Below, piece by piece: positions 5,250 through 64,000 of a stretch of 64,000 nt of DNA. The translations under genes were made by a program, and so were the position numbers. The DNA is from Phoronis australis (lineage: Eukaryota; Animalia; Phoronida), in assembly GCA_002633005.1 (NCBI GenBank), contig NMRA01000347.1:343311-407310 (forward strand), given 5' to 3'. The notes under the pieces were generated by a model. That model saw nothing but the letters and a program-made list of their open reading frames with translations, did no database searches and had not been told where the DNA came from. Positions within the stretch are counted from its first letter, which is position 1. Each line of letters opens with the position of its first letter.

Positions 5250-6269
5250 NTAATGATGGAATGTGACCCAAGCAGGACGGTTGCAAGGCCTTTATCTGCC
5301 ATGAATTAACCTATCGCCAGGACTTTGAGTGACGGCTTAACTGACCAATCAACGCAGCATTCTTGACACATCTTCGTTTCCAAGCCGCCATTTTACCCCA
5401 ACAACACGTTGCCGGGCAAAACTGCTTGTTCGTTTGTCGACATTACGCAAGGGGGCAGAGCTTGCAATAGGCCAATTCTAGGAGAAGGAGATTTGTTCCC
5501 GTCAGTTTCACTCGTGGAAGAACACTAGTCTCCTCCACAGACCCTCTAGATTAGCTGAGGTCTGCTACAGCGCACTTTTCCATTCTTGGAATATTATTGG
5601 CTGTTCCGATTTCAAGAAACAAGGCATTCTATTGGTCAGTTGTATAATGGGTCACTAACATGGCGACTTCCAGTGAAGGAATGTCATTGGATTTACAGCT
5701 GCTTAAATCTCTTTGCTTTCATCAAACTCCCGCATTTCAAAGCTAACGAGACAAGGACGTAACGTATATGAAACATTTTGCCTAATGACAATTATGTTTT
5801 ATATTGTGCTTGACTCTCATTGACACTCATTTTAGGCATACTATAGCATCGAATAGCGGGGAAGGAGTAGCTGAGTGCGTCGCGGCCACGGGAGTTTGTC
5901 TCGATCTTTTCAGAGCACACCCTCTCCGTACATGTATGTTAACATGTTCATGTAAGTTATATAAGCTCCCGTGAATACCGTGAAGTGGGTCAGACAAGGA
6001 TTTATGCTGAAATACTACCATTCATTGCCAAGTGCATAAATACACTGGCAAACTTGTAACTAGTACTACTAATAGTCTAGCAATAGTTTTATAATGACTG
6101 ACTTTATTGCTTCTGGCGATGCCATTTAGCAGTACCTTTCTCCTTTCCTTCCTTCCTTTATTTGTACTCCTGGCCATCCGCCCAAAGTTAAAAAAACAAG
6201 CAAACAAGATCATTGGAATGTTAGGCGCACTATCTGTTCCGTTTTTTAGATGCGTAGTATACATAACTC

Positions 6270-8913: not shown

Positions 8914-11015
8914 TTTAAATACAATGTGGAGAATAAGAAAACGTCTGCATTAAAATGTGTTGAAAAAAATGAACTCTTTTTAAGCTCCTTATCCACAAAT
9001 TGTACATTTTTCAAGCTGCTATTAACCCAACCTCTTTTTAGAACCGTCATGTAACAATATAAGATTGGTCTCGAACTAACAATGGTGTTTTGGACCAAAA
9101 TAGTACCAAAAATCTAATCACAATTGCTCGCATAAAGATTGGCATATCCAGCAGTTGGATTTGGATACTAGTGTCTGGTGTCAATCTTCACGTGTGTGCT
9201 CGTGATTTAGAGTGTTGATCTTGTACTGTTCCTTAGAGATTGCATGTGGTATGTTGGCTTCGGTTGAACTGATAGTTTGTTATTTCTTAAAACATGTTGC
9301 AATAACCTGGCGGGTCAAAGTGCACCAACCATAGCTTTCTTCCATGTCCACTAAGGAAAAAGTTGAGACAAGGATATATACAGGCCTTGGAATTTTCCTC
9401 TTTTAAGAGGATTTACTATTTTTGTTTTGATTTCCTCATATTTGATTGTCAGTTTCGTCTTTTTTATCATTATTTTGACTTGATTAATGCAAAAAAACAT
9501 TTATTTCAGTTAAATTTTCCAACACCAAAAATATTCCTGTTACACAAGACTATTTGTAAAACGATGCATCACCTGGTAAATTTTCCTCTTTTTGTCATTA
9601 GTCATTCCAATTCCTGTATATAGTGGTAAGTTGTTCAGATCAAAATTCATTCTTTTTCACATAAGACGCATTCATAGCAACTTTAAGGAATTTAATTCGA
9701 AGGAAAACTGGACCCCAGAAGACACCTTCTGCGAAGCACATTCTGAAATCAACAATTGTGCTTGGTTACTTTCCAAGATGTTCAACCCACATTGTTAGGT
9801 ATAGGGGATAGAGTTCATTTCACCATCCTTAGGCTTTAAGAGTAACCTCCTAAAACCATTCCAAGGGGTTACTCCCACAGGTTTATACAGGACATGACAC
9901 TCAGCTGGGAGATTTTTCTCAATTTCTCTTCAAAATGGTGATTGAAAAAATCCTTACCAAAGCAAACTTTTCCCATGAATACAACGGGTTTCACTCTGGA
10001 AATTAAAAACAGTGGAAATGGTACCTTTTTCCTACTGCAGATGGGACTTAAATACGATATCTGTATTACGTTGGACGCCAGACTCATTTTTGACAACAGG
10101 AATCTCTTAGTCGACTTCTTCAAGCTTATTGGGTGAAAAAGACAACTGTCCAAGAATTACTACGAAGGGATTAAGTTGTTAGCATTAACCCTTCTATTAA
10201 GCTTTTCCATTGGAACATTAGACTACATTTTTATTAACTCCAAACCTCGGACTACAATCTTAATGTTTTTTTGCCACTGCTTAAATGGGTGGAGATTCTT
10301 CTAGTACCAGAGTATGCATAAAACTAATGCTTAGGGCCCATTTGGGACACCTCTTGGGTATTTTCGTACAGTTTAGCTACACATTTACCCTCAGGACATC
10401 TAGAACACTTCGGCTATTTCCTATTTACAAATTTTTTTTCGAAACACTTCGGGTATTTTTGTAACCTCAAATATCCTTTCGGAGATGAACGTTATCCAAA
10501 ATATGGCAAGTCACATGATTTTCAGGCTTGAGAATAATAGGCTAACTGAAGTCCGCACACATCCAGAGAGCGTTCACCTATTAGGTGAAATTTGAGGTTT
10601 CAAAAACACCCGAGGTGTTCTGGATGTCCTTGAGAGTAAATGTTTTCAGTGCATGCTCGAACTTTGGTCATTATGGCCAATCATTCTCCACTATGTTTGA
10701 AAGTCACGCAGGTTAAACTCACCTCCAAGGTGAAATTTGAGGCTCCCAATATACCCGAGGTGATCTGAATGGCTTAGGAACCCCAACTTGTGCGGGGTCC
10801 CACATCAAAGAGGGAAACGGGAAGAAAAAATTATGGCAACGAGGGGAGGAGTGTATAGCTCGAGAATTGTGACTACCTGGAGGGTCAAAAATTGTGGTGT
10901 TCTAGGTAGTGAATGTGGTGTAGGCCACGGAGTGGTGGAAATTGGGCGCCAGCAGTGTCTACTGTATCACTGTACGGTGACGGATTTAGGGGGGGAAAGA
11001 GGGTCATAGCCCCGC
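8914..11015 (+). repeat. Near-identical copy of 11141-13249 (probable haplotype duplication at N 11016)
   Basis: TTTAAATACAATGTGGAGAATAAG starts both copies and both end TAGCCCCGC. The duplicate 94-aa and 64-aa spurious ORFs differ by a few SNPs. Confidence 0.85.
10382..10643. mobile_element. MITE with about 38-bp inverted repeats (piggyBac-like ends); allelic copy at about 12631-12872, related motifs at 33033-33228
   Basis: CATTTACCCTCAGGACATCTAGAACACTTCGG matches the reverse complement of CCGAGGTGTTCTGGATGTCCTTGAGAGTAAATG. The AACACCTCGGGTATTTT motif is repeated in both orientations. Confidence 0.55.
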
Positions 11016-13205
11016 NTATGTAAATAACTTTTTATAGCGACGTACAATTCAGTTAATGTTAAGAATATAGCAAGAATAATTATAAACACGAATTTAGAGC
11101 ATATTGTTGTTCAGATTGGTTGAGACCTTGCAATTTACACTTTAAATACAATGTGGAGAATAAGAAAACGTCTGCATTAAACTGTGTTGAAAAAATGAAC
11201 TCTTTTAAGTTCCTTATCCACAAATTGTACATTTTTCAAGCTGCTATTAACCCAACCACTTTTTAGAACCGTCATGTAAGAATATAAGATTGGTCTCGCA
11301 CTAACAATGGTGTTTTGGGCCAAAATAGTACCAAAAATCTAATCACAATTGCTCGCATAAAGATTGGCATATCCAGCAGTTGGATTTGGATACTAGTGTC
11401 TGGTGTCAATCTTCACGTGTGTGCTCGTGATTTAGAGTGTTGATCTTGTACTGTTCCTTATTGAGATTGCATGTGGTATATTGGCTTCGGTTGAACTGAT
11501 AGTTTGTTATTTCTTAAAACATGTTGCAATAACCTGGCGGGTCAAAGTGCACCAACCATAGCTTTGAGCAATAACAAAATTTGAGTTCTTCCATGTCCAC
11601 TAAGGAAAAAGTTGAGACAAGGATATATACAGGCCTTGGAATTTTCCTCTTTTAAGAGTATTTACTATTTTTTGTTTTGATTTCCTCTTATTTGATTGTC
11701 AGTTTCGTCTTTTTTATCACTATTTTGACTTGATTAATGCAAAAACATTTATTTCAGTTAAATTTTCCAACACCAAAAATATTCCTGTCACACAAGCCTA
11801 TTTGTAAAACGATGCATCACCTGGTAAATTTTCCTCTTTTTGTCATTAGTCATTCCAATTCCTGTATATAGTGGTAAGTTGTTCAGATCAAAATTCATTC
11901 TTTTTCAAATAAGACGCATTCATAGCAACTTTAAGGAATTTAATTCGAAGGAGAACTGGACCCCAGAAGACTCCTTCTGTGAAGCACATTCTGAAATCAA
12001 CAATTGTGCTTGGTAACTTCCCAAGATGTTCAACCCATATTGTTAGGTATAGGGGATAGAGTTCATTTCACCATCCTTGGGCTTTAAGAGTAACCTCCTA
12101 AAACCATTCCAAAGGGTTACTCCCACAGGTTTATAAAGGACATGACACTCAGCTGGGAGATTTTTCTCAATTTCTCTTCAAAATGGTGATTGAAAAAATC
12201 CTTACCAAAGCAAACTTTTCCCATGAATACAACGGGTTTCACTCTGGAAATTAAAAACACTGGAAATAGTACCTTTTTCCTGCTGCAGATGGGACTTAAA
12301 TACGATATCTGTATTACGTTGGACGCCAGACTCATTTTTGACAACAAAAATCTCTTAGTCGACTTCTTCAAGCTTAATGGGTGAAAAAGACAGCTGTCCA
12401 AGAATTACTACGAAGGGATTAAGTTGTTAGCATTAACCCTTCTATGAAGCTTTCCATTGGAACATTAGACTACATTTTTATTGAACTCCAAACCTCGGAC
12501 TACAAACTTAATGTTTTTTTTGCCACTGCTTAAATGGGTGGAGATTCTTCTAGTACCAGAGTATGCATAGAACTAATGCTTAGGGCCCATTTGGGACACC
12601 TCTTGGGTATTTTCAAACAGTTTAGCTACACATTTACCCTCAGAACATCTAGAACATTTCGGCTTTTTCCTATTTACAATTTTTTTTTTCGAAACACTTC
12701 GGGTATTTTTGTAACCTCAAATATCCTTTCGGAGATGAACGTTATTCAAAATATGGCAAGTCACATGATTTTCAGGCTGAAGTCCGCACAAATCCAGAGA
12801 GTGTTCACCTATTAGGTGACATTTGAGGTTTCAAAAACACCCGAGGTGTTCTGGATGTCCTTGAGAGTAAATGCTTTCAGTGCATGCTCGAACTTTGGTC
12901 ATTATGGCCAATCATTCTCCACTAAGTTTGAAAGTCACGCAGGTTAAACTTACCTCCAAGGTGAAATTTGAGGCTCCCAATATACTCGAGGTGATCTGAA
13001 TGGCTTAGGAACCCCAAGTTGTGTGGGGTCCCACATCAAAGAGGGAAAGGGGAAGAAAAAATTATGGCAACGAGGGGAGGAGTGTATAGCTCGAAAATTG
13101 TGGCTACCTGGAGGGTCAAAAATTGTGGTGTTCTAGGTAGTGAATAAGGTGTAGGCCGCGGAGTGGTGGAAATTGGGCGCCAGCAGTGTCTACTGTATCA
13201 CTGTA

Positions 13206-13367
13206 CGGTGACTGATTTAGGGGGGGGGGCAAGAGGGCCATAGCCCCGCCTGAAACTCTCCCAGATTCCATTCGGCAGTTTGGGGGTGAGAATGTATGAC
13301 GGGGAAAATCCTGTCTCTAATACTCTGCCCTTTCTCCTGNCCTCCACCCAACTCAAAATCCTGGATA
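13206..13367 (+). mobile_element. About 150-bp GC-rich MITE family (CAGTGGCGGAT-type TIR), copy 1
   Basis: Shares CTCCCAGATTCCATT.GGCAGTT.GGGGGTG...CCAACTCAAAATCCTGGAT with 48217-48367 (+) and 43026-43181 (-). Confidence 0.7.
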
Positions 13368-16663: not shown

Positions 16664-19600
16664 CTAGAATTTCAAAGTATACATGTACGTGCATCACCAC
16701 AGTGATTACAACAAAACTTCGAAAATACGACATTTTTCGAAAATAACTGACAACTTTCTAAAACTGCAGTGGCAACACTAAATGAATGAAAAACATTTTG
16801 TTCCTATATCTTCCAGTCAGCCCTTTACTCTCCCAATCCACAGGCTCTCAGATGGTACTACGCCATAACTTCTCGATGTGCCTTCACCGCTTTGGTCCCT
16901 CGGCTTGGTGTCCTCTGACAACGAGGTTCCATTGACCTGGTACTCCCTCTACCGGTAAATTCTACTTGTGCACGACTTATTTGTGTGGATTAGGTGCATC
17001 AGTCCATGTTTGCAAAAAATAGATACGTTTCATGAATGCGGGGATTTGAAATGGGTGGTAACTTAGGGGTAATTTTCAAAAAACATGGGGAGGCGAACGA
17101 GTTTCGACGGAGGGATTCAGACAATGAACAGTAAGGGTTAGTGTTATCAGACAATTCCATATTCTTTCGCCTGTGATAAATGTACCCGTTACTGGCCTGT
17201 AGGAGACTGAAAAGGTAGCGACTGTGACAACTATTTCCCAACCTCAAACGAAGACCGGCTTCCATTAGCACGTAGTGCATAATGCATTCTACGTGTAATG
17301 CATTTAAATCGCAGCCACTTTACGGCGTTATGTAATGCTCATGCGCAGTCCTAAGTACACGACTGTCTTACCAGGTGCTCTGTAGTCCTTGAAGCTGATG
17401 TTAACCAATGGGAAGTGAAGTACAACTGGACAAGTGGGGTCGCTGTCGTCTTTGAAGACGTAACATTCCTTCCATCCTTCCTTCTCGATGATGTTGGCGT
17501 CAATAGGCGGAAATGGGACTCGGTTTAACCTGGCCCACTTCGAGGCTAACAGGAGTTCCTGTTGAGACAGTAATAATGAATGGTGTGGCTTGCCGAGCCC
17601 GAATGAGTGGGTTGTAATAGCCAATTAGAAGTCATTTTAGATTCATCGTTAATTTAAAAGAGTTTTATTGAAGAGAGAGAAGTACATGCACAATAAAACT
17701 GTTGGCACTAATCTATCACGTTCGAACGTATTTCTGATCATTTTAAATTGGTTTAGTATCGATTCAGTGCAAAGTGTTGTACCTAGCCGCTATTTCCTTC
17801 AATTGTACCATTTTGATATTTTGGTTTAATGCTAATTCCTTATTTTATTTCAAGTATGAGAAAAAACGTCGAAATATGACGCGACATAAAACTCACCTTA
17901 AAAGGAGGCGTACTGTCTTTTGGTCGTCTGCTGAAGTCAAAGGATAGATAGATGTCGACTCCTCTTTGAGGTCGCAGAAGTAATGGGTAAGGAGAATTGA
18001 ACGTAAGGCCAGCATCTACTAGGTACAGGGTCTTCGGTTCCGTCGATTGTTTCTCAAAGATCTCCCCGAAAGGAGTCTCCTCCTCGGGGTCAGCGCTCGG
18101 CGTGAGAGTCATGCTGGCAAGCGGAGAGAATGGGTACATTTCGGACAGGCATAGGCCCCTCATGAAATTGTGAATTTTGGCAGCCCTTCCGAACCGCTTA
18201 TACAACAACCCGGTGCTGTGCAGGAATGTCTGAAGTGCCCATTGAAGGAAAGTCTCACCATGTGTCATGTTTTCCAAGGGTGGGAGTTTTTCTCCGTTCT
18301 TGTCTTCCCCATTGGCGCTTTCAGTAACTTCAACGTGATTTCCGCCTCCTTGTCCTGTTCCGCCCTCTTCCAGTTTTTCCAATTCGCGAATCCTCTTGAT
18401 GCTTCTCCTCTTGAATGACGCCAGTGCCGCGGGAGATATTTCACTTCCGGCGTGATCTTCAATATTGACCTCTTCGATGGCCTTACGTAGAGATTTCCGA
18501 AGGGAACGTCGCTTTATGGATTTTTTAACTCTAGAATCCTCCAATTCACTCTCGTTTGTAGACCCACGGTTCATCAGACTTCTTCTAGCCGAGATTCGAC
18601 GCTTGGACAATCTCCTTTTTTGGTCTGAGAAAGTGTCGCTCTTTTTAGGACTATTCTGAACTGATTGAGTTGAGCTGCTCAAACCGTTATTATTACTTTC
18701 TTCTTGTCCATTTTCTTTATCGAGTTGACCTTTAAATGAGCTGCCTGGTCGTGATCTGATGGCGGAGCGAGATCGACTGTCTCTCTTTAGTGGACTGTTT
18801 CGAAAAGTCTCGTCATCGCTTTCTGATACCTCATCAAGCGCTGGGAGGAATTCGTCGTCTTCATCTTCATCCTCATCTCCTTCTTCTATGGCATCTTCGA
18901 ATAAATCGTCATCGTCTGACGTAGAGTCGTCTTCACCATCATTGAAGTCCTCTAGTTTTCCATCTCCTGCAGTGTCAATTTCGTCTGAAAAATATTTTAA
19001 TTTGTAACTGCTACTTCACGAATTCAAGAAATGAATTTAAATAAAGAAAACTCCTTCCCGAGGAATAACCTCACAAAACGATGGGCGGAACCAACTGACA
19101 CAAAGCATGGCTAAACCAAATCAGTAAGCGGATGCTAACGCACGTGAGCCAACTCATCATAGCTTGCCCTGTATTAGACCCAATACCCTTACCCAGTGAT
19201 TTTGTCGTTAAACATATATAGACTGAAACCTACAGTGTACGGGGCCTGCGGTTGTACCCACCCTTCCACAGTGGCACATACATGTAACATCATTCAGTAT
19301 ATCTGACCTCCTCTCCACATTATGCATACCGCCCCATATTTGAAAACATGAAAGAACGTGAATAACCTTGACATTATTAATCGTCTAATCTTACATCCTT
19401 ACCCATGGAGATGTCAGGACGCATTGTTTGTATGGGGTCTTTCTTGGTTCGGTTGAACACTCGTGTTAATAGTATGGTAAATGCGCTTCCCCATAAACCT
19501 GCAAAAGAGTTCTACTGTTATGTCATGTTGCGTCTTCGTACGTTAAATTCAAGAATTAGAGGCGCTGCTGTGTGGCAGACATTTTACTTCTGTCACTTAA

Positions 19601-22600
19601 GTTTTGATGTTCAAATATCTGTCTCTCTGAGCACCGTCAGATGCAAAGCACTTGTCAGCCAGTCTTTTATCTGTGAATCATTATGCAAAGTTGCCTCGCG
19701 CGCGTCTTAAATAACAAAACTTTTAATTTGGTTTGTCATATGATGCACTAAGCTGGAGAGTACTGGCACCTTGTGATTTTTCGAGAACCGACTCGATAAG
19801 ATGGCTTAACCACGTGACCATACTGCTTAAAAGCAAATACTAACGAGAGGTTTGCTTTCTTCAGCTCGTTATTAAATTTCAATTGGTGTTTTGCTTAAAA
19901 TTTGATTGTGCTGTTCCTTTAAAGACTATGAATCTCCCCGAGCGTACCTCCCGCTCATCGACACTAAAACTGAGCGGTTAGGTCGAATCTCGTAAATTTG
20001 GGCCCTGAAATGCCGCTGCCCGTTTTCGTATAAACGTTGAGTGGGGACAGAAGCACTATCCTGGAAACAGACCTATTGCACGATTGAAAGCAAAGTGGAT
20101 TTTGCTGTTCCGTTGGCGTCACGTTTCATTGCACAGTGATAATTCAATAGATTGTTCTGGGTTTCCACGTACAGGTGTGTGCATGAAACAACGTGGTGCT
20201 TTTTCCGTTGTTGTTATATCTGTCACTTGAAGACTATTGTAAAGTTCTAATTAAAAGAAATTGTGAAAAGACTATCAATACGAGAAAAAGCTCACCTAAA
20301 AGATAGTGCAGTGGTGGTTCCTCAAAAGTCTTGATTATCTTGCCCATGAAGAACATGCTGCCGAACTGTTTGACGGGAAGGAACGTGCCGTACTTCGCCA
20401 TGCCGATTTCGAATGGATTGAACTCGACCCACTCTGCAAGAGATATCCTCGCAGGTTAACAAACTACGTTCACCAGCGAAGGAAATGATTTTCCTGATAA
20501 ACAATTAACGGTAAAACGTAAATTATATGTAAATGCGGGAGGTGCAATTCTTGCTCATCAAGATGTATTTAAACTAATTCTCTTATCTGAACAGAGTGTG
20601 AACAAGTCGAAAACAAAACATTCATAAGTCTGCACGCTTTACTTTACTCTTCTTGGGTGTTTAGTCTATACGTGTGCACGTGCTTACACTGACTCGTTCA
20701 GTTAGTACTCTCCAATACTTAACAGATCCCCCATATGTGGACGGTGTAGAGGTTGCAACGGAAATTCTTACCATGGAATGTTAAAGCTGACACGTTCCGT
20801 TTTACATGAAGACAGGAGAACAGCGGAAAGGGCTGTGCTCCGTCTTTGATTTTTTCTTGCATGTCAGAGAGCCTGTATTCTTTTCTCTGCAAAGCAAACT
20901 TACACAATTTAAACACTTCGCTTTCCCACTAGCTTCTCCTTGAAAAGGTACCTAAACCGGTTTTAGCTTACCAATAGATACTAAGATTTCCCATCCTCTA
21001 TTCTGGATGCAAAATAATGCCCTGTAACCCTCGAGAACCGCCACAGTATGGAGAAAATTTCATAAACTCGTTTCAAATACTGCGGAACGGGCAAGCGTGA
21101 CCTACGTTTTTAGCGAATCAACCATCAAAAACCACAATGCCCGATTTGTGAGATAGGCAGGATGCGATTTTAATCGATTCTTGTCTTGACTAAGGTTGGC
21201 GCTAGTGTTGCATTAGCAGGGGACATAATGAGGATTGGTTGAAATCACCAGGGTATTCTTAAAGAGAGCTAGAGAGCCTGAGAAAAGATAATGTGGTTGA
21301 TGCTTTCAGAAATGTAAACCTTGAAGTTATAGATTATAGAATCTGCCAGAGGCTTAGAAGGTTGACTAATAATTTTCAATGATTTCCATTGCTTAAGTAC
21401 TGTCCGATCTTGGTTGAATGACAACGTATTGAGGTGGAAGTCCATGCACTCGGGAGCGATTTGCGACATAACATCAAAAGACATAAAATCAAAAGCATGC
21501 AGTCAAAAGACAACACTCCCATTTTTGTTGATACAAATCCAATATCAGCCAAATGATAACTGATCACCAGTCTCATATCAGTGTCGTTTAGTTCCTAGCA
21601 CCATGTATGGAAACTTCATTGGATAAGCCTCATCATGACACTGTTTACAGTAAAAAGAATTTAAAAAGGATTGGTGCTCCAACTATCGTGCATGAAAATT
21701 TAACAGTAAATAGGAATTCTTATCCATCGTTGGTATCAAACTTTATGTATGTACTAAATTAGGAGAAATGAATCCGCATAAATAATACTTCTAATGCTAT
21801 CAAACAAAAATGTTCCGGTAAATTTGGGCAAATTTATGAGCGCAAACGGTGGGGTAACTCTCAAGATATAGACAATGTACGACATTTCATGTACTGAAAG
21901 TTCCTTTGAATTGGGCCTTCTTACATTTTTGATAAGAGTCTCTCCGATAAGATGGCCGAAAAGGTCTGTAAAGCTGACTGGCTGTCCGCGTTGCTTCTTC
22001 TCCAGTACAGCCTCTAGATATTTATAGACGCGAGATGGCGTGTATAGCCAGAGCTGACTATGCCGGATGTTGGCTTTCAGCTCCTCCTGTAGGGCGGCCG
22101 CGTCCTCGCCAGGCCAACGCTCGTTGGAATAGAGCTGAGATAAGTACCTAAGAAGAGAATTATGTTCAAGGAAGTTTTCACGACCAAATTTGGAACTCTT
22201 CTTTGATACCCCAAGTAGATATTGCCATGTTTCTCTTGACAAAAATACGGTTGACGCATAGTAGTTCCTCCGAACACAGAGATCTATTCTAAACTGAGTC
22301 GCCAACAATTTTATAACCGACCACAAGAGACCTACATGTAGATTTGTGGCAGAAATCACGACTCTAATGAAGACTTCCGAGTTTGCCATGGTGGTAAAGA
22401 AGTTACTTGCGAACACGTCCTTCCTGGGATCAAATCGAGATGAGCTCTCCTTTACTTCGCAAATAAATGTTTAAAAGGTATTAAACTGATGTTACCATGT
22501 CAACAATCAATAGAGGAAATTTTTGACTCAAGAATTTTGACTATGGATGATTTCACAACTTCATAAAGTGACTAAATCATATTATGTGAGGCATAGCTAA

Positions 22601-52884: not shown

Positions 52885-53774
52885 CGATATAAAATCACTA
52901 AAAATATGACCACATCAATAGTTTCAAGCCTGATTAATAATCTCTCGGACTTTGGAGGTCTTTCTTTCCTATCAGCTAAACAAGACAAACACTCCGAGAG
53001 TTATAAACAAGACGATGACTATCTTTGCCAATAATAAATAGTTGAAAAAGACATGCAATAGGAATGTAGTGGTTACACACTCAAGCGGAGGCTCTTTGAG
53101 TTGAACTATAACTAATATTGACCAACAGGTCTGTATATGCATGAGAAGGCAACCATAACGCCAGTCACTCGCGACAAGAAATTAAATGGTTAACCAAACA
53201 TAAACTGCTTCCCAATCTCTGTCCATGGCGGACATGATGCTATGGTATTGATTCCATGAGCTTAGTCATACAACAGCTACCTTCCTCTAGGCCTTCTCTT
53301 ACAAAACTTAGAAGAAGTTATCATTACACAAAGCACTGCAGACATCAGATCTTGCTTTAAGTTCCTTAATTACACATTACACTGTGTTGCTATTGACAAC
53401 AGTGCAAGCCGCAATACCAACAGGTATACATTATGTATTAATCTCAACCAGAGATTCTACCAACATCCAGGAAATGTACATGTAGTCGCATTCTCCCAGT
53501 TTTCAGGAAAGCAATTGAGCTAGACCACTGCACCTCACACTACACAAGCTTTACTTCAAAAATCCTTGTTTGGCTGTAGACTATGATTAGTGTTATAAGA
53601 TTCAATAGAGTTCAGTGACTGTATGTATTAAGTAGTATTCTGCATTGACATTGCTTAAACACACCAGCACCATCTGCTGTTCGTATTTCACCTCTTTTTG
53701 ATTGTAAATCTGAGCGAAGCCTGCTTTGCATCATGGCCCAGTCGAGGCATCAATGATGCTGCGCTGATCGACTA

Positions 53775-53789
53775 TTAACTTGAGTGTTC
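53775..53789 (-). CDS. PNPLA6: Candidate terminal coding exon of the NTE gene (EHSS*)
   Basis: TTTCATTGCAG acceptor at 53790; phase 0 gives GAA CAC TCA AGT TAA. No homology support. Confidence 0.35.
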   Translation of the reverse strand, partial: EHSS

Positions 53790-56700
53790 CTGCAATGAAA
53801 TGACTGTAAGCTTAGGTGTTGAACTTCGTCAATACTCATTTTAAAACAAAGTAGAAAAGAATTTGGTCTACAAAATAACTTGTCAGCAAAATGTCTTATA
53901 AGATTTTTTTAAAACCACTTTGCAATTCTTCATAACTTTGAAAGTTCCCCGTTTCTAAAAGTTCAGGAACAACTAGATGGTTGACATCAGAACAACCTCA
54001 ACAACTATTCATACAACAAGGGCTCTTACCCATACGAGGGACCAGACGTAAACAGCAAGACTCTCAACCGAATAACAAGGACCCTAACACAAACAAGAAA
54101 AGCATTAACCCAAATGAAGACAATACTGCAGGGTCCCAACCCAACAATGAGGTCCCTAAAACAACAGAGCCCATAACCCAAACTGAGAATGTCTAACCCA
54201 AAGGAGGTTCCTCAACCAACAATGAGGGCCTAGCCAAAAAAACGAAGACCCTCACTCCAAAACTGTCCGATAATTAAGATTTGTGTACTAGACAAGAGCC
54301 ACGCAGAGTATTGAAATGCGCCCACGACTGCACCGCAAATGGTGTGCCTCTAGGGTTGCTTATTTATATCATAAAAATGGCCATTAGATGGCTCAGAATA
54401 CCATCCAAAAATGGGAAGGTGTCGTCCTCTCTCAAAATTATTCACCAAATTTTATAAAAATCCATCAAAGAACTCCAAAACACAAAACCAAATGTAAAAA
54501 GAAAACAAACTGCTATTAGGAACCACAGCAGTAGACGAATCCATGCATCTGCTGTCTAGTTAATAGGAATACAAGGCTTGCGCAAAATATTTCAAAAACA
54601 TCTTGCCAACATTTAGGAGATACAGCTGTAGATGCGAACTAGGGGACAACACAGAAGTTGGGACCTGTTAGGAAATCCACGTCAGTCATGCTGTTGCCCG
54701 AAGGAACACAGCTGCCAATTTACATAATGATCCTCAACGCAATTTGGAAGGAGCAGAAGCAAACAAAAATAATTCAAATGGCCATTAATTGGTGCGGAAT
54801 TCGTCGAATCCATCACAAAAAGGAAAGCTGCTGTGTTCTTGGTAATAGAAATTTATCTGCCCAATTTCATGAAAAAGAATCCAGGAACTCTGATGTTACA
54901 GAGGGCATAGCTGTATTTAGATTGGTCTGAAACTGGCCGTCATCTGTTGCCATCTCCACAAGAATACATCTGCTATATTTCAGAAAGATTTTGTAAAGGG
55001 TATAAAAGGAGAGACAGCCACGGAAGCAAAAAATAAAGTTGCCACTAAAGGGGTACAAGAGTAGTTGAACATGTCCGACGATCAACGTCAGCCTCGGTCT
55101 TCTCATCAGGAACACATCTCCAAATTTTCATAATGATCCTTCAAGCAGTTTGATAGTTGGAGAGGGCGACATCAAAAATGTACTTAAACATTGATTAAAA
55201 TGGCTACTGAGATACGCACAATACGTCAAATTCCCTCGAAAATGAAAAGATGTCGTTGTCTCCTTAACAGAAACCTAGTATTCCAAAAATAATAATAAAA
55301 CAGCTGCTTTACGTCCAATCTATCTGAAAAGGGAAATGTGTCGGCTCTTTAATGGAAACCTATAATATAATATGCAATTTCATAAAAATTAGCCAATGAG
55401 CTTCAAAGATATCGAGGACAATGGAAAAAAAAATTGGCACACTGGTAGTTGCACCATCCAAAAGTCATCGGCGTTCGCTGTCAACTTCACATAAATACAC
55501 TTGCCAAATTTAATAAAGATCCTGCAGAGGGTTTGGTAGATACAACCATGAGCAAAAAAAACTGCCACAGAAGAGGTGCCACAGTAGTCAAAATCCTCAC
55601 TCCTCACAGTAAGAATATATTATACGGCAATCATGGTTTCGGTGCTAGAGGGGATAAGACTTGAAAACAGTGAAAAAATACCTCAAATCAATCTGAAAAT
55701 GGGAGGATAGCAACATCTCATTAATAGATGCCTATCTGACAAATTGCATGAAAATACCTTGAGGATCTTTGAAGATACAGACTGAGGTAAACGTAAAAAT
55801 ACTAAAATTGTCACTAGGGGGCACCAGTAATCAGATCTGTCCCAAAGTTGGCTCATGCCGTCCCATCCACAAAAGGAACACGTGTGCAAAATTTCATGAA
55901 CATACATAGAAGGGTTTTGGAGTCAGAGCAGCGGATGCCGGACGGACGCCGGACGGACGGGTGGACAAACAGACAGGAATGACAGCATAATGTGCCCACA
56001 TATAAATATAAAAATTACTTAATAGTAATAGTCATCTGCATTCATAAACAAGTTTCTGACCTCATCAAGTGGTGGCAGGCTATCATCACTTTCATACTCA
56101 TCATCACCATCATCGTCAGAATACCCAGGCTTCTGTATAGTGCAGACTAACTCTGCCAGATCTGTGAACGAGCAGTTGGCAGGCATCAGCTGAAACAGAC
56201 AGACAGTTAGGCTAATGACAATAATATGACCTCAGTGTCTATGTAGTTACTGCTTCATTTATGTCAAGCTAATCGAAAAGAATTGGGTATTTAGTTGAAA
56301 CTTTCGAATTTCGACAATGCCTAATTTATTTTAAAAATTTCTGTTCATTGCCTTGTCATCATTTGTCGACAACTACACAAAGGGTTAATTATCTAATTCT
56401 ATGACCAAAATCAGGAGTAACCAGATTTCATCTGGCCTCAGTAGCCAAGTTTTATGACCCGTAAAAAATCTCAAGAGTTTTTTACGACTTCATGTTTCGA
56501 TTCATGGCCAAAAATGAGACAGAATAGCCCTGTCTTGCTTCTGAATCAGTATCAAAAGTTTATGTCCACTCATGAGCTAAAAACGCTTTGACGAGCTTCT
56601 GTATTCCACTTTTACGACATGTCAATACAGAACAGACAATAGACTGGGACCCACCACCACCCCGTTCTACCTGCTGCTGCTGTTCAAACTTCTTGACTCC

Positions 56701-59700
56701 CCTCTTGTCTTGTTTCTCCTGTAGAAGCTCCTTTACACGCTCCTCCTTGTGATATGTGGAGAAGTAGGCCTTCGCGTGGTGTAGACCCACATCCTGTGGA
56801 ACAGCACGGTACAATGAGAACACGTGATACAATGGGATGCTGAGGTTTCTTTTGCGTCATTGGTGGCAACAAGTCCCACTTCCATAACTGCTCAAATCCA
56901 ACCATATTCGACGACTGTCTATGCAAAGCTTCATGAGAGACTAGTCTGCTTGTTATGTTTTGTTTGTGTAACTAAATTAGATCGCGAAAATGAGTTTCAC
57001 AAAATTGACTTATGACTGGAACGTTCAACTTGGTGTTAGCTTCCCACTTCACAACAGCGGAAAAACACAGTCTACAAATAATTTACATATTGTTTCAGTA
57101 ATTTGCATAATATGTCCGCCCCAGATTACAAGGTGACAGAACTCTCCTTTGTCTCAAAGATAAGAAAATATGTGATCTATTTTATGAAATAAGACACATT
57201 TTTGTGTCTCTCATTGATGTAGAGAAGGCGAAGAATTTAAGATCACGCATCCGCGGGTATTTATCCACTTTATCAAACTTATTCACGTCGGAGTTGCCAC
57301 CCACAGCACAGCTGCAGCAATAATTTGTTGGCACTGGAAGGCCGAATAGAGTAATGTAACTGAGAAAAACTTGTAAAGAATCAGACAACAACAAATAACA
57401 TGTGAAACTCCAGTGGCATGCAAACGAGGCAGCAAATGTGCTTGACCGATGTTTATGGCATTGTGGGTAAAATACAGTGAGTTTCGAGTGTCGCTCTGTA
57501 ATCCGGGATGGCCCTGCTGATGAGTATATTCTTAGACACTTTGAATTTTTGTAAAGTGGCCCCTATTGAAAGCGTCTGCAGTTTAATCTTGACATCAAAA
57601 CAAAAACTGACATGAAACTAGTCGACGATACATCAATCTTCACAAATGATAAATGACCTCAACCAATAAGATTACACCGCACGTCACTTGCATAAATGTC
57701 CTCAACCAAAAAGATTATGCCACATGTCACTTACACACTAAATGTTCTCAGAGACAACCAATAAGATGATGCAACTCGTCGCGTACATAAATGTACTCAA
57801 CCAACATGAGTTTGCCCAATGTCACTTACATAAATGTCGTCAAACAGATTAAACTGTAGTGTGCCGAACTTGTCAATGGGTGGTCGGATGTACTCGCACA
57901 TCTCATTCTTCTGAATGGCCTCCATCAGGCGAACACATGACACATAGGCAAGTCGTGATTGGATCTCGTTCATGTCAGGCACCTAGGTGACAGCAAACAC
58001 AGCCAATCAGTATCATTATAACATAAAACACCAAGAAAATGTATCTAAGTGGAGTTTAGATTATGAAGGAACAACTATATTTAGTCTACAGATCCTTTTA
58101 ATTCACGCAATAAGAATTAAATTTTAGAAGACACCAGCTTTACAGCTGTGAAGAATATTTTAAAAGCAATCAATGTCATTTTGCAAGGGAACATATAATT
58201 TAGTGCATTCTCCAGCATACTCTCAAAACACTTGTCACTCGTGCGATTTTGTGTGGTCTTAAATTAACTTGTTTTTCACGATTTCTTGAGTCTTAGGAAC
58301 GCATCGCTGCCACATGGTTGGATGTCTAATCATTCTCTACACACACACAAACACTCACCTTCACCGGTGACGCCCATGGATTCCAGCGTTTCCATAGCAA
58401 CCACCAGCCTGACAACTCATCACCGTAGTTGGTCAGATTAATCTCATCTTGACTTCCAACGTCGACGGCAAACACTGTCTGAGCACCGTGTGCCCGCATG
58501 ACGTCCGCTGTAGAAACAATTGGGTCAAAGTCATAGCATATTAAGTAAAAAGAGCATTCAACACGTTTGAAGTTGCAAAAAGCCACACGCTAAGTCATGG
58601 AACTACATAGCTTTTCACGGGTTTTGAACAATTAAGGCGATATTTTACCAACTCTCACAAGAACAACACAGAGTGTTAAAATGCACCTACAACTGCACTG
58701 CAAACAGAATGCTTCAAGGAGCATCAAAAATCACCACTACGTGGTGCAGAATGTGTTTAACGTGTCCTGGTCGTGTCCCTAATAGACCAAATTTTATGAA
58801 AACATGACCAGGAACTCCGAAGCAAATGTAAAAATAGAATTGCCACCCCTCATCATCTGTCATCGCCATAGAAACACATTTGCCAAATCTCTTCAAGGGT
58901 TCAAGAGATACAGCACTGGGTTCCAGAAGCCTGAATGCTCATACAGAGATGACAGCAATATGCATCTACATACGGGTATATAAAAATTACAAAAAACAGT
59001 TTTCAATAATCATTATGGTTATAAATCACTATCTCTTGCATTTCAAATAAAAAACTGAGAAAGAATATTTCTTTACATGACCTTGCAATTTGTATGCGAT
59101 GGCAAGGTCAGATCAAAGTGAAATTTAATCACTGACAATGCTTTCCACAAAAAGTACTTTTGAGTTCTGGTATTGGTCTTGATGACACTCTTACCTACAG
59201 ATGACTAATTCTTCACCTCAGCTTAATTACAGATAATTTTGGAATGGAAAAGACCTATTTTTTGTGCTATCTAATCTGCCTGAACTTATTAGAAAATACA
59301 TATAGTAATACACGATTTCACACAAACCCAAAAAAGACACAAAACACTGTTGGAAGTTGCCATCACAGAGCTATGCTTGGGCTCCTATTCACATTAAAAG
59401 AATGACGGACAAAGCAAAAAATGGAAATATACAAAAAGAAAGAAAAACGAAGAAAAACCGTGTTTTGCCGGTTTATTATCAAAGCTAATGGTAATTGTCA
59501 AATCACAATCGCTTTGGAAACTAAAACTAATAAAAATAAAAAATAAAACCTGATGATTAGACAGTTGAATAAGCAATGAAACCAAGATGTTACAATCTAC
59601 AGTCACCCTGACTAATCACACTTTTCTGAGACATTATCATGTACAGATCTGATAGAGCGCCTCTACTTTGTCCATTACATATGATCATGTGACCTAATCA

Positions 59701-62700
59701 GTGACTTCAACAGCTCTTGACAGGCCAACATTGTAATTAAAGACTGCCCCAAAAATTGTGGGCCAACAACAGCTGAGGACATTAAAGTTTCTTTTTCTAA
59801 GTTTCCATTTAAGAGATTTCCATACAGATTGGTCTTGATCTATATGCGAGATCACATGTTATAATTTCGATTTTCATCCTTATGGATTTAGAAAAGTACT
59901 TCACCACCACGCGATATCTGGGAAGACATGAGAGCCCAGCTCGAACAAAATGTCAATGGGACAGAACAATTCATCCAAGAATTAAGATTGAGTAATTAGT
60001 CTCAGATAGACAGCAAAGTGCAGCCATTGGAGAACTCAAAAGTGTCACACATGATGTGTTCACAGACATGGCAGTACTGTTTGTTTATTTGTTCGTTTGT
60101 TTGTTTACAATGTACCTGGCAGGTTGTTTACGTAACCGCCGTCAAGGAGGAGATGTCCGTCTACGGGGTCACAGAGGGGGGGCATGTAGCCAGCCAGTGA
60201 CATGCTTGAACGGGCGTAACGCCACAATGAACCTAGAAAAACCAACACAAGGCAACAGTGCAACAGGGGGCGCTCAATGAAAACACAGACAGGAAACGGC
60301 TGGTACCACTATGTGAATGTGGAACTATGGAAAGTACCAATTACTTGACAGTTGTTCATCAACTGTTACGAAAAATAACTTTCAGAAATGTTTATAGAAA
60401 CCTTTCAGTGCTTTAGAAATGAAATGGCGACACATGTTTGGTACCATGTTGAAATGGCATCAGAATCTAAAAAAACTCAGTAATCTACACAGTCCCAAAG
60501 TCCTCACTGTCATTGGTGATCAGCCGTTTGCCCTTTGGTCAGTGCTGCGCCACCTGTTGGTAGCGTGCAACACTAAGGTTCAGCTAACCTGGCACAATGT
60601 TAACGTAAGCGCCATCTACCAGGTAATGGCCATCTATCGGGTCGCAGATCGGCGGCAGAACTACCACGATGGTCATGCTGGCGCGAACGTACCTCCACAG
60701 GGAACCTTGAGAAGACAGAGACAGTGTGATGGGCGCAAGAGGGCGCCACTAGACATACTGTAGGACTTCTGTCAGTCAGCAGGGATTAATGTGTAGTTTT
60801 TGATTATCAGAGATAGGTCAGACTTGGAAGCAGTAAACAACAGATAAATGAGACAAGAGGTTGGGAGTGTCACCATTAACTTGATTGTGAAGCAATTAGA
60901 TTGTACTGACACAATATCTCTTAATGGTTCTGGTTTTAGACTAAATTAATGCGAGAAAACAAATAACAAATATTAAATGCTAAGGCGAACGATGTGCAGA
61001 GTACATTGTCATTTAAGAAACAAAATGTCTGGACTCTATTGGACACTAGGTGGCGTGGTGATCAGTCTGATCAACAGCCTGATCACCATGTCATCTAACT
61101 TTGATGCGCACCAAATTTAATTTTTTTTTTGTTAAAGTTCTGCTATAAGAAAACAAATCACAGAATCATTAGCAGTTGTTGGTGTTCTTGTTAAAACTAA
61201 CATTCTTCAGATTGCTCAAACAATTTACAGCATAGCCAGAAAAACTCTCCAGAAGTTTTAGAGGTGTTAAAAGGCAGACAGACATTACCATTTCAATTAC
61301 CAGGAAGTAAAGTTCATGGTTAAACAACATGCATGTTTAGTAAGAATCCCTGAAGCACTTCAAACAAGACCTAGAGTTAGGGTAAAGAAACCATCCAGAA
61401 GCCGGAATCATAAATACTCTCACAACCGTGACGAATACAACTACACACAGGTTTGACTCTCCAAGCACTACTGCACATCAAATCCTGTGATGGGCCACCG
61501 AGAAAAAAACACTGAACGATAGGTAATTTATTTCCAAATACCAAACAAAAATCACAGTTTATCGTAATTATGACTCCCGCCACCGAGTGAAGTGAATGAA
61601 AGAATAGAAAACAGGGATTTAAGGTTTAATAAATTAATTAATTAGTCAAACGAGCATTAAGATTCATTGGTATACATTTCTTAACACTTACGGTAAAAAT
61701 TCTTCAATTTGGAACAAAAATGATAAATCTTGCTGAAACAGTCGAATTTCTATTTTTCAGAGGCTTGTCACATTGTTGCAAATGATCAAAATTTATTCAA
61801 ATTTGTTTGGTAATAACTGCGCTAGACAAACCATACTAAAGGCAAAGTAAATTTTCCTGTTGAAGAAATTGACAAAATGTCCAAAACTGAAGAATTTTTA
61901 TCGTACTATAGACTCTTGAAAATAATTTCAAATTATTTAAACGTTTTCTTAAATATTAAATTTATCGATTAACACTCATTTCTAATTGAATTTAAAATAG
62001 AAATTAAATCTGTATTACTTTCAGACAAGTCCGTGGTAATATCTCACAAATTCTGCAGAACTGGAGAAATTGCAAATTCAACTCATGTGGCTGAAAAAAC
62101 AACTACAGTTCACCTGAACAGTGTACTTAACACTCTTTAATTTCCTGGAAACTTCACTCCATTAGCAAACTGCTTTTTTTGAACACAACACTGGTAAGCA
62201 CTGGGAGATCTAATTTCAAAGTTCCTCAAAAACTCGAATCCCACTACGGCCAAGTTCTTGACGGAAACTCACCACTTGTGTGAACTCTCATTTTAGAACT
62301 GGTGATATCAGTGGATATGGCAAAGTATGGAATCCATAGGTCCTCAATCTGAATGTCACCGATCACTCCATGAATGATTCGGTTGAAGAATGCCCCTGAA
62401 AAGTAGAGCAACTACAAGTGAAAAGATATAAAATGTAACAATAAAACATTTTATACCACAATATTAGCGTCAAATGGCAGATACAACCGTGTAATAACCC
62501 ATAAAGTTATCTCACTAGTGAGATAACGATTTGGCGGGAAACCGAGGACGGAGTCGAACCCGGGACCTTGAGTTTGATGGTCGCCGACCTTAACCACTAC
62601 ACCACGCAGCGGCTGACGTCATCAAGAGTGAAAATAGAATACTTAAATGAGCACGCGCAATAATCGCACGTTCAACAAACCGCATTGTACTGTACTTANT

Positions 62701-63215
62701 GTCCAAAACTGAAGAATTTTTATCGTACTATAGACTCTTGAAAATAATTTCATATATTTAAACGCTTTCTTAAATATTAAATTTATCGATTAACGCTCAT
62801 TTCAAATTGAATTTAAAATAGAAATTAAATCTGTGTTACTTTCAGACAAGTCTGTGGTAATATTTCAAAATTCTGCAGAACTGGAGAAATTGCAAATTCA
62901 ACTCCTGTGGCTCAAAAAACAACAACAGTTCACCTGAGCAGTGTACTTAACACTCTTTAATTTCCTGGAAACTTCACTCCATTAGCAAACTGCTTCTTTT
63001 GAACACAACACCGGTAAGCACTGGGAGATCTAATTTCAAAGTTCCTCAAAAACTCGAATCCCACTACGACCAAGTTCTTGACGGAAACTCACCACTTGTG
63101 TGAACTCTCATTTTAGAACTGGTGATATCCGTGGATATGGCAAAGTATGGTATCCATAGGTCCTCAATCTGAATGTCACCGATCACTCCATGAATGATTC
63201 GGTTGAAGAATGCCC
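53775..63215 (-). CDS. PNPLA6: Neuropathy target esterase / swiss cheese (PNPLA6/PNPLA7) homolog, 3' portion; the gene continues beyond the right edge
   Basis: Exons encode [24 protein letters not shown]...[62 protein letters not shown] and FTDLAE. Phases are consistent. Co-orthologous to vertebrate PNPLA6 and PNPLA7. Confidence 0.93.
54287..56005 (+). mobile_element. Helentron/HINE (pearl-like) non-autonomous element with degenerate internal tandem units
   Basis: Starts ACTAGACAAGAG, has recurring AAATTTCATGAAAATCC-like cores, a (GGAC)n microsatellite at 55939-55966 and an A-rich end. A shorter relative lies at about 58690-58990. Confidence 0.6.
56061..56189 (-). CDS. PNPLA6: NTE exon ([21 protein letters not shown]...LDE)
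   Basis: 129 bp, TTTCAG/GTCAG, FTDLAE motif followed by an acidic tail. Confidence 0.85.
56671..56793 (-). CDS. PNPLA6: NTE exon ([11 protein letters not shown]...EQQQQ)
   Basis: 123 bp, CAG/GTAG, phase 0; corresponds to human DVGYQYGKAVF. Confidence 0.8.
57830..57982 (-). CDS. PNPLA6: NTE exon ([18 protein letters not shown]...[11 protein letters not shown]...DIY)
   Basis: 153 bp, TAG/GTAAGT; highly conserved peptide. Confidence 0.96.
58359..58507 (-). CDS. PNPLA6: NTE exon (ADVMRAHGA...DVGSQDE...[18 protein letters not shown])
   Basis: 149 bp, CAG/GTGAGT, phase 1 to 0. Confidence 0.96.
60116..60232 (-). CDS. PNPLA6: NTE catalytic-Asp exon, variant B (canonical): [39 protein letters not shown]
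   Basis: 117 bp, TTTTCTAG acceptor, GTAC donor, phase 1-1, patatin DGG motif. Not in the supplied ORF track; translated by hand. Confidence 0.95.
60589..60705 (-). CDS. PNPLA6: NTE catalytic-Asp exon, variant A (divergent paralogous exon): [39 protein letters not shown]
   Basis: 117 bp, pyrimidine tract plus TCAAG acceptor, GTTAG donor, phase 1-1, no stops; 24/39 aa identical to variant B. Confidence 0.88.
62273..62395 (-). CDS. PNPLA6: NTE exon ([41 protein letters not shown])
   Basis: 123 bp, TTCAG/GTGAGT, phase 1-1. Confidence 0.93.
62460..62620 (-). mobile_element. tRNA-headed repeat with an adjacent 22-bp perfect palindrome
   Basis: Minus strand has TGGTGTAGTGGTT (A box) and GGGTTCGACTCC (B box). 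Palindrome GTTATCTCACTAGTGAGATAAC at 62506-62527. Confidence 0.6.
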
Positions 63216-63280
63216 CTGGAAAGTAGAGCAACTACAAGTGAAAAAATGTAAAATGTAACAATAAAACACTTTATTTACCA
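62700..63280 (+). repeat. Near-identical copy of 61878-62458, including a second copy of the NTE exon at 63093-63215 (probable haplotype duplication at N 62699)
   Basis: Restarts TGTCCAAAACTGAAG immediately after the N. The exon copies differ only by 2 synonymous SNPs. Confidence 0.85.
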
Positions 63281-64000
63281 TTTGTGAATGCCCCTTTCTG
63301 AACATAAGACCATGATGATTAATGCACTTATTTCATTAGAAATCGCGTATTTTTACAAATTTGTTGAGGATGCAAATCGTTTGTGTTACAAGCAACACAT
63401 GTTACAGGCCCTAGCTCTTGAGAATTGGGAAGCAAACCAGCTCTTATCAAAATATTCACGGTTCATTTTGACACCAATTGATTGGAGGAATGGCAGATTT
63501 TTCAACGAGATGACACACCACCTCATACTCACCAGAGAACATGGAAGTGTAGGGATACGTCAGATCAATGACTTTTGACCACAGTGACATCATTTCCTGT
63601 TCAATAAGGAAGATGTATTAGAACAAAGATGAATCCACTTCAGTGGCCAACTCCTTCAATCCAAAATTGGCAAAATTTGTAACTAAAATTTGTCTACTAA
63701 AAACTTTTTTACACACAGAAATAAATTTGAACATCTCTCCATTGCCTTTACTTTTAACAGATTCAACTTTCCTTTCGTCAACATTCCTAGATCATTTCAG
63801 TTGGTGTCGAACAGACGTTTCAGCATGACTAGTTCGTAATACTAAAATCACGTATATTGGTTCTGCCTTCACGCCCACTGAGGTACAACACGTCCTACTC
63901 TACTGAGCACAGTGTGCGCACGTCATTTGAGCTTGCTCAGTGGAAGTGAATTCAGGGCCTTTTGCCGAGTCATACACATCACTATCTACTGTTGCATGAG

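What the first reader, a model, noticed from the sequence alone, without database searches (positions are those of the whole stretch)
60116..60705. Tandem duplicated catalytic exon of NTE/swiss cheese: candidate mutually exclusive active-site switch (DGG vs DGA)
Seen in sequence: two 117-bp exons 356 bp apart, both phase 1-1 with GT-AG sites and open frames. They encode paralogous peptides: A (upstream in the transcript) [39 protein letters not shown] and [40 protein letters not shown]. They are 24/39 identical with many synonymous differences, have unrelated flanking introns and no N nearby, so this is an old duplication under selection rather than an assembly artefact. Established knowledge: this segment holds the catalytic Asp of the patatin Ser-Asp dyad (DGG/DGA motif). 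Inference: including both would duplicate a core element, so they are probably spliced mutually exclusively. That would give two enzymes with different active-site linings (SLAGY to TIVVV, DGG to DGA, NNL to NIV) and possibly different lipid specificity or organophosphate sensitivity. From memory (unverified), Drosophila sws carries a similar alternative exon with a DGC motif placed after the canonical one. Here the variant precedes the canonical exon, which would imply independent duplication or rearrangement.
Basis: partly seen in the sequence, partly recalled or inferred. Interest (0 to 1): 0.88.

Follow-up and report, generated by a model that had tools for sequence, protein, structure and literature searches.

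The report
Swappable active-site exon of neuropathy esterase
This animal's neuropathy target esterase gene carries two old copies of the exon holding its catalytic aspartate, and RNA reads show each copy spliced to the preceding exon; this is likely the same either-or exon pair already catalogued in humans and flies, here with a predicted RNA stem that may pick between the copies, and what the second enzyme version does is untested.

Summary
Real, transcribed, and largely a known event. Exons A (60589-60705, DGA) and B (60116-60232, DGG) are as described. In three RNA runs the upstream exon joins B, skipping A, in 20 reads and joins A in 6. No A-B joint is listed, but no joint to the downstream exon is listed either, so a complete A-type mRNA is not shown. 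Human PNPLA6 has the same two 117-bp exons, variant first, dated to Bilateria with Drosophila sws (PMC8373072). This scan noted the pair before in arthropod genomes. Additions here: (1) an octocoral has RefSeq isoforms that differ only in this exon (DGG versus DGA), which would date the pair before Bilateria; (2) the order is reversed in arthropods and that octocoral lineage; (3) the 356-nt intron between A and B folds into a long stem (z -3.7) that buries B's acceptor-side region, resembling half of the ATE1 switch; its conservation could not be tested. No study of the variant enzyme was found.

The parts
60589..60705 (-). Exon A, variant copy ([10 protein letters not shown]...DGAYVNIVP), minor form
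   Evidence: AG/GT, open frame; joint from exon U in 4, 1 and 1 reads in runs X1-X3
60116..60232 (-). Exon B, canonical copy ([10 protein letters not shown]...DGGYVNNLP), major form
   Evidence: joint from exon U, skipping A, in 9, 4 and 7 reads
62273..62395 (-). Upstream shared exon U; its donor is used by both A and B
   Evidence: (joints at 62271 cut +2; loose end at 62396 continuing into the exon at about 63533-63596), tblastn
58359..58507 (-). Downstream shared exon D (DVMRAHG...PVK)
   Evidence: read depth and a 7-read loose end into the next exon in X1; no joint from A or B listed
60484..60559 (-). Intron element just after exon A (here 'R3'), 5' arm of the predicted stem
   Evidence: predicted, not probed
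60261..60330 (-). Intron element before exon B (here 'R4'), 3' arm of the predicted stem; encloses the best branch-point-like motif at 60281
   Evidence: Duplex -73.8 kcal/mol, z -4.1, 0 of 500 shuffles; best sense-strand partner of R3 in the 64 kb
60727..60797 (-). Candidate competing partner of R3 before exon A; weak
   Evidence: Duplex -49.9, z -1.2, 65 of 500 shuffles as good; local fold with exon A z -3.1
61033..61097 (-). Self-hairpin in the U-A intron with complementarity to R3; probably part of a dispersed repeat
   Evidence: Duplex -47.0, z -4.3, but no pairing to R3 in the regional fold; reads from other loci land on 61037-61069
61878..63274 (.). 96% direct repeat (61878-62454 and 62700-63274) around the single N at 62699, duplicating exon U; likely assembly overlap of two haplotypes
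   Evidence: the same pattern flanks Ns at 5250 and 11016; RNA alleles at 62310 and 62331 match the second copy
53700..57982 (-). Remaining 3' exons of the gene (57830-57982, 56671-56793, 56061-56189, last coding exon beginning at 53789)
   Evidence: Spliced joints 56792-57829, 56189-56671 and 53788-56060 in X1-X4

Best explanation
Exons A and B are two old copies of the catalytic-aspartate exon of an NTE/PNPLA6/swiss cheese gene, each spliced to the same upstream exon, and they are likely used one at a time, as the counterpart of the pair catalogued in human PNPLA6 and fly sws. B (DGG) is the major form; A (DGA) takes 6 of 26 upstream joints. Both keep the catalytic Asp, so both products are predicted to be folded esterases that differ in the loop before the two prolines and in the residue two after the Asp; a difference in substrate or inhibitor preference is inferred and untested. 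Frameshift decay cannot enforce exclusivity, because each exon is 117 nt. The likely device here is RNA structure: an element just after A is predicted to pair with the region before B, hiding B's branch-point region and leaving about 57 nt of the intron outside the stem, which would block both B use and A-B joining. When that element is instead held by sequence before A, which is transcribed earlier, A would be looped out and B used; this second state is weakly supported.
For: Shown: exon anatomy; U-B joints 9/4/7 and U-A joints 4/1/1 with GT-AG ends, no A-B row. Equal-length isoform pairs differing only in these 39 residues in Dendronephthya, Lycorma and Argiope. Human event 164 with two 117-bp exons, DGC first, ancestor 'Bilateria' (PMC8373072 section 17 and supplement). 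Two Drosophila isoforms of 1425 aa each (PMC9025805 passage). Exon tree splits 39 variant from 36 canonical rows at 100/99, at SH-aLRT 96 with the labelling column removed, and is not rejected with three diagnostic columns removed (p-AU 0.54). P18, P19, D25, L29, D31, G32, N36 and P39 are invariant in 39 of 39 variant rows. Among 150 distinct exon peptides, Leu13 goes with Gly33 in 46 of 46 and non-Leu13 with Cys or Ala33 in 104 of 104. Stem: intron fold -107.3 kcal/mol, z -3.7, 0 of 100 shuffles; six control introns give z from -1.5 to +1.4; about 40 expected pairs in the regional ensemble; no second copy of the intron in the window.
Against: No A-to-D joint is listed, and no B-to-D joint either (threshold 3 reads in a run; B's donor lies 7 nt from a skipped repeat). 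In X1 the intron after A has read depth (2.05 over 60380-60515), and retention there gives a stop two codons after A. Only about 18-19% of each run was read, all three from one study. 157 of 357 fetched proteins join both copies; the searches favour such models, but some may reflect real double inclusion. The stem is from one species: no covariation, the antisense duplex is as stable (-54.1 against -52.5), none of 13 other inter-exon introns of 150 nt or more shows this 5'-3' pairing (z -1.7 to +2.2), the target was chosen after looking at four candidates, and at equilibrium the B-hiding stem dominates although B is the major form. The tree has only 39 columns and convergence could produce the split.
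Confidence: 0.85

Rival explanations
1. Exon A is a regulatory, non-productive exon in this species: choosing it leads to retention of the next intron and a stop right after the exon, lowering the amount of active enzyme.
For: No A-D joint listed; read depth in the intron after A in X1; GGT TAG follows the exon; one insect model ends just after the variant exon (P0077); A has a long branch (0.6).
Against: X2 and X3 have no depth at 60244-60515; missing a joint of expected count 4 under a threshold of 3 has probability 0.24, and the expected B-D joint is missing too; catalytic and structural residues are invariant across 39 variant rows; full-length variant isoforms are annotated in many animals.
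Confidence: 0.07
2. The pair arose independently in this lineage and converged on the same substitutions.
For: Exon order differs between clades; three-copy loci L060 and L063 show that re-duplication occurs; several bivalve-like and coral-like loci have a single copy; PMC8373072 reports such convergence for ACOX1 and KCNMA1/slo.
Against: A groups with variant exons of other phyla and not with its neighbour B; its best match is the variant-first DGA exon of L060 (32 of 39 identical); synonymous sites between A and B are heavily changed.
Confidence: 0.1
3. The complementary elements are convergent CTCF-type DNA sites or repeat remnants, and exon choice depends on polymerase pausing or splicing factors and not on an RNA stem.
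For: 3 of the 5 matches to a CTCF-like 13-mer (pattern recalled, not from a call) in 64 kb lie at 60261, 60547 and 61044, against 0.14 expected; two of them form one helix of the stem; no sense-strand bias in stability.
Against: The 13-mer accounts for about 12 of about 40 predicted pairs; the intron has no second copy in the window; an unrelated helix is conserved with an A-U to G-U change in four annelid-like loci of the same cluster.
Confidence: 0.3
4. Both exons are routinely included together, giving a protein with a tandem repeat of the segment.
For: Many database models join both copies; joining keeps the frame.
Against: 20 reads join U directly to B and no A-B row reaches 3 reads in any run.
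Confidence: 0.04

Closest known systems
[quoted passage not shown] 2021, PMC8373072; section 17 and supplement passages read)
   Same: Same gene family, same 117-bp exon, same 39-residue segment, variant exon first and canonical DGG exon second.
   Different: Human variant is ASASYCPYLPP...DGC; here it is [11 protein letters not shown]...DGA. The human inter-exon intron is 85 nt by the table's coordinates, 356 nt here. The paper dates the event to Bilateria and reports no enzyme test in the passages read.
Drosophila swiss cheese (sws) and arthropod NTE alternative exon
   Same: Same duplicated exon; Ile13-type variant loop; DGA also occurs in a sea spider and two ostracods.
   Different: Canonical exon first in the arthropod two-copy models fetched; mostly DGC. 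Drosophila's own order was not checked here.
Human ATE1 exons 7a/7b competing RNA structures R1R3/R3R4 (PMC7797038; section 14 and passages read)
   Same: An element in the inter-exon intron pairs with the region just before the second exon and hides its 3' splice-site region.
   Different: [quoted passage not shown] Here the regions before A and B are not similar above chance, the partner before A is weak, and nothing is tested.
Patatin-family DGG/DGA motif (PMC10291501 passages)
   Same: Catalytic Asp motif kept in both exons; human PNPLA5 has DGA.
   Different: Here the two motifs are alternatives within one gene.

Membership tests
NTE/PNPLA6-7/swiss cheese | Patatin domain homologous to NTE with the Asp motif 120 residues after the GxSxG serine | tested here: met
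   Exons map in order onto bivalve and amphioxus NTE at 59-78% identity for the bivalve; spacing checked in homologs. The serine exon itself lies outside the window.
NTE/PNPLA6-7/swiss cheese | N-terminal membrane anchor and three cNMP-binding domains | not testable with these tools
   The 5' part of the gene is beyond position 64000 and no genome is held.
Tandem-duplicated mutually exclusive exon pair | Homologous adjacent exons, same length and phase, intact splice sites | tested here: met
Tandem-duplicated mutually exclusive exon pair | Each exon is joined to the upstream shared exon | tested here: met
   U-A 6 reads, U-B 20 reads
Tandem-duplicated mutually exclusive exon pair | Each exon is joined to the downstream shared exon | tested here: inconclusive
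   Neither A-D nor B-D is listed
Tandem-duplicated mutually exclusive exon pair | The two exons are not joined to each other and are not both skipped | tested here: inconclusive
   No A-B and no U-D row at a threshold of 3 reads in a run; depth is low
PNPLA6 event 164 / sws MXE orthologue | Variant exon groups with variant exons of other phyla, not with its neighbour | tested here: met
   39 columns only
ATE1-type competing RNA structure switch | Inter-exon element complementary to the region before the second exon | tested here: met
   z -4.1, 0 of 500 shuffles; predicted only
ATE1-type competing RNA structure switch | Similar elements before both exons competing for the same partner | tested here: not met
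   Local alignment of the two acceptor-side regions no better than shuffles (350 of 1000); duplex with the region before A z -1.2
ATE1-type competing RNA structure switch | Conservation with compensatory changes | not testable with these tools
   No close relative among 80 loci; intron has no match in them

The most novel reading that the evidence does not exclude
The catalytic-exon switch of NTE is older than Bilateria: an octocoral already has a canonical DGG exon and an Ile13/Val30/DGA variant nearly matching arthropod variants, so animals have kept two alternative active-site linings since the cnidarian-bilaterian split, while the exon order flipped and the exclusion device changed from a very short intron (36-85 nt) to an RNA stem as in this genome.
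Probability: 0.45. Interest if true: 0.68.

Novelty: new member of a known kind. Interest (0 to 1): 0.42.

Why it matters
NTE/PNPLA6 is the target in organophosphate-induced delayed neuropathy and is mutated in several inherited nerve and retinal diseases (PMC9025805). A second active-site exon kept across animals implies a second enzyme form, and none of the ten literature searches run here found a test of it. It would also mean that disease mutations in the canonical exon spare one isoform. This window adds direct splicing evidence from a likely spiralian, a candidate RNA switch that can be tested with a small minigene, and a lead that the pair is older than the published Bilateria date. The existence of the pair itself is not new.

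Tried and rejected
Assembly artefact for A/B: rejected (66% nt identity, both spliced); the real artefact-like duplication is exon U. A third copy in the window: none. Frameshift decay as the exclusion device: impossible, both exons are 117 nt. Plain steric hindrance: the intron is 356 nt. A distant branch point near A's donor: CUGAC at 60542 and CUGAU at 60523 exist, but they lie in the predicted stem and AG dinucleotides follow before B's acceptor; not pursued. The hairpin at 61033-61097 as the competing partner: strong as an isolated duplex but unpaired with R3 in regional folds and overlapping a repeat; rejected as unsupported. The A-B intron as a transposon with inverted ends: no other copy in the window or in the loci; the rest of the genome could not be searched. 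No RNA holder was listed by the word index; the raw-read runs came by species label. X4 contigs gave no information on A or B. The annelid-like helix motif is not present near the exons in the window. No solved structure of an NTE patatin domain was found; the nearest is bacterial PlpD, and no structure was predicted, so the placing of the changed residues in the active site rests on the motif, not on a model. Papers PMC11906636, PMC7462079, PMC11607010, PMC4408580 and PMC7917623 (find passages only) say nothing on this exon; the main text of PMC5740500 does not name PNPLA6 (its appendix figure S35 was not seen).

Full report
Observation. On the minus strand, 60589-60705 (A) and 60116-60232 (B) are 117-bp exons with AG before and GT after, both phase 1-1, 356 bp apart. 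There is no third copy in the window. The exons sit in an NTE/PNPLA6/swiss cheese gene, between an upstream exon U (62273-62395) and a downstream exon D (58359-58507). The Asp of the DGG/DGA motif lies 120 residues after the GxSxG serine in 5 of 8 homologs checked, as for human Ser1014 and Asp1134 (PMC9025805 and PMC10291501, passages). A single N at 62699 is flanked by a 577-bp 96% repeat that duplicates exon U; the same pattern flanks Ns at 5250 and 11016. This is most simply an uncollapsed haplotype overlap and does not involve A or B.

Expression. Three stranded RNA runs from one study, found by species label and read to about 18-19%, were laid on 58340-62410. U joins B, skipping A, in 9, 4 and 7 reads. 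U joins A in 4, 1 and 1 reads. Both joints have GT-AG ends. A thus takes 6 of 26 joints (23%, Wilson interval 11-42%). No A-B, U-D, A-D or B-D row is listed; a row needs 3 reads in one run. B's donor is 7 nt from a repeat that the tool skipped, which may explain the missing B-D row. For A-D, missing a joint of expected count 4 has probability 0.24. X1 also has depth in the intron after A (2.05 over 60380-60515); X2 and X3 have none. So B transcripts are shown to exclude A, and A is shown to be spliced in at its 5' end, but a complete A-type mRNA is not shown.

Relatives. Three protein searches and two cluster look-ups gave 357 proteins. 157 of them join two or more copies of the segment: 111 DGC-DGG, 35 DGG-DGC, 8 DGG-DGA, 2 DGA-DGG, 1 DGC-DGG-DGG; many are near-duplicates, and the searches favour two-copy models. 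Variant first: vertebrates, hagfish, amphioxus, bdelloid rotifers, cestodes. Canonical first: insects, crustaceans, ticks, spiders, a sea spider, and unnamed proteins whose canonical copy is identical to the octocoral Dendronephthya's (P0001). Equal-length isoform pairs differ only within these 39 residues in Dendronephthya (RefSeq X1 and X2, 1346 aa, DGG against DGA), Lycorma and Argiope. Of 80 metagenome loci, 33 have the exon bounded by AG/GT. Among them L046, L053, L070 and L076 have one variant before the canonical exon, L060 and L063 have two variants (DGA, DGC) before it, and arthropod-like loci and L068 have the variant after it. Bivalve-like L028 and L058 and coral-like L078-L080 show one copy only, and the listed isoforms of two clams and the octopuses are canonical only, so the variant has been lost, or never arose, in some groups. 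A 160-column tree of flanking exons places the window weakly (SH-aLRT 87) with Capitella, L046, L053 and a cestode, so it is likely a spiralian.

One origin or many. A tree of 75 hand-picked exon rows separates all 39 variant from all 36 canonical rows at 100/99. The split stays at SH-aLRT 96 when the column used for labelling is dropped, and is not rejected (p-AU 0.54) when columns 13, 30 and 33 are dropped. Exon A's best match is the DGA exon of L060 (32 of 39), and its nearest row by path is the sea spider variant. Eight positions including the Asp are invariant in all 39 variant rows. Among 150 distinct exon peptides, Leu13 always goes with Gly33 (46) and any other residue at 13 with Cys or Ala33 (104); related sequences inflate this count, but it suggests the two positions are coupled. 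With 39 columns, convergence is not excluded. A flip can arise by duplicating one exon and losing the first copy (inference); the three-copy loci show that such intermediates exist.

What is known. Martinez-Gomez et al. 2021 (PMC8373072; section 17, supplement part 6 and table rows read) list human PNPLA6 event 164: exons chr19:7556966-7557082 (DGC) and 7557168-7557284 (DGG), last common ancestor Bilateria, with two equivalent exons in Drosophila sws, and judge a common ancestor more likely. A review states that Drosophila has two isoforms of 1425 aa. Ten literature searches found no study of the variant enzyme and no report of the pair in cnidarians; subscription papers are not covered, and the appendix of PMC5740500 was not seen.

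How exclusion may work. Both exons keep the frame, so decay cannot enforce it. In some relatives the inter-exon intron is very short (36 nt implied by P0001, 41 in L070, 85 in L068 and human), which suggests steric exclusion. Here it is 356 nt but folds into a long stem: -107.3 kcal/mol, z -3.7, 0 of 100 shuffles, against z -1.5 to +1.4 for six control introns. The element after A pairs with 60261-60330 at -73.8 kcal/mol (z -4.1, 0 of 500), and that region is its best sense-strand partner among the 60-nt windows of the 64 kb (second of 4254 over both strands). The stem encloses the best branch-point-like motif of B (60281) and leaves about 57 nt outside it. This resembles R3R4 of human ATE1 (PMC7797038, section 14 and passages). 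The other half of such a switch is weak: the region before A pairs with the same element at z -1.2 as a duplex, though the local fold around A has z -3.1, and the regions before A and B are not similar. At equilibrium the B-hiding stem wins although B is the major form, so the model needs folding during transcription. The antisense duplex is as stable, no other locus shows this pairing, and three CTCF-like 13-mers cluster here. I put the stem's role in exon choice at about 0.45. A different helix is conserved in the same cluster in L046, L053, L060 and L063, with an A-U to G-U change, and would loop out the middle exon in the three-copy loci.

Function. Both exons keep the catalytic Asp, and DGA is the motif of human PNPLA5, so A is predicted to give a folded and probably active enzyme. 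The changes cluster at positions 12-17 and 28-38. Different lipid or inhibitor preference is a reasonable inference and has not been tested; no NTE patatin structure was found and none was predicted.

Verdict. It is a new member of a known kind. The worthwhile leads are the octocoral pair, the order flip and the candidate stem. Interest 0.42.

Noticed in passing
L060:101-1600 and L063:67-1589: Three tandem copies of the exon (DGA, DGC, then canonical DGG), all with AG/GT.
   Followed up: partly
L046:604 and 762; L053:637 and 793; L060:281 and 942; L063:247 and 915: A conserved intronic helix of 12-20 bp with an A-U to G-U change; in L060 and L063 it brackets the middle exon, in L046 and L053 both arms lie in one intron, as if a middle exon was lost.
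   Followed up: partly
L052:1173-1428 (also L059, L062; Daphnia-like): The variant exon is itself split into three pieces by two short introns, so the alternative is one exon against a three-exon block.
   Followed up: partly
L046:431-541 and L053:456-566: Variant exons are 111 nt, two residues shorter than the canonical copy.
   Followed up: no
P0007, P0009 and its cluster: A divergent NTE-like protein that carries only a DGC-type segment in all members showing the motif; possibly a separate gene that fixed the variant.
   Followed up: no
window 3526-6723, 8914-13249, 61878-63274: 94-96% direct repeats flanking single Ns, likely uncollapsed haplotype overlaps; the last duplicates exon U, and RNA alleles match the second copy.
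   Followed up: partly
window 60261-60273, 60547-60559, 61044-61056: Three of five CTCF-like 13-mers in the 64 kb cluster around exon A (pattern recalled).
   Followed up: partly
window 17840-19015 and 21754-22470 (minus strand): Open frames of 391 and 238 codons, the longest in the window; not identified.
   Followed up: no
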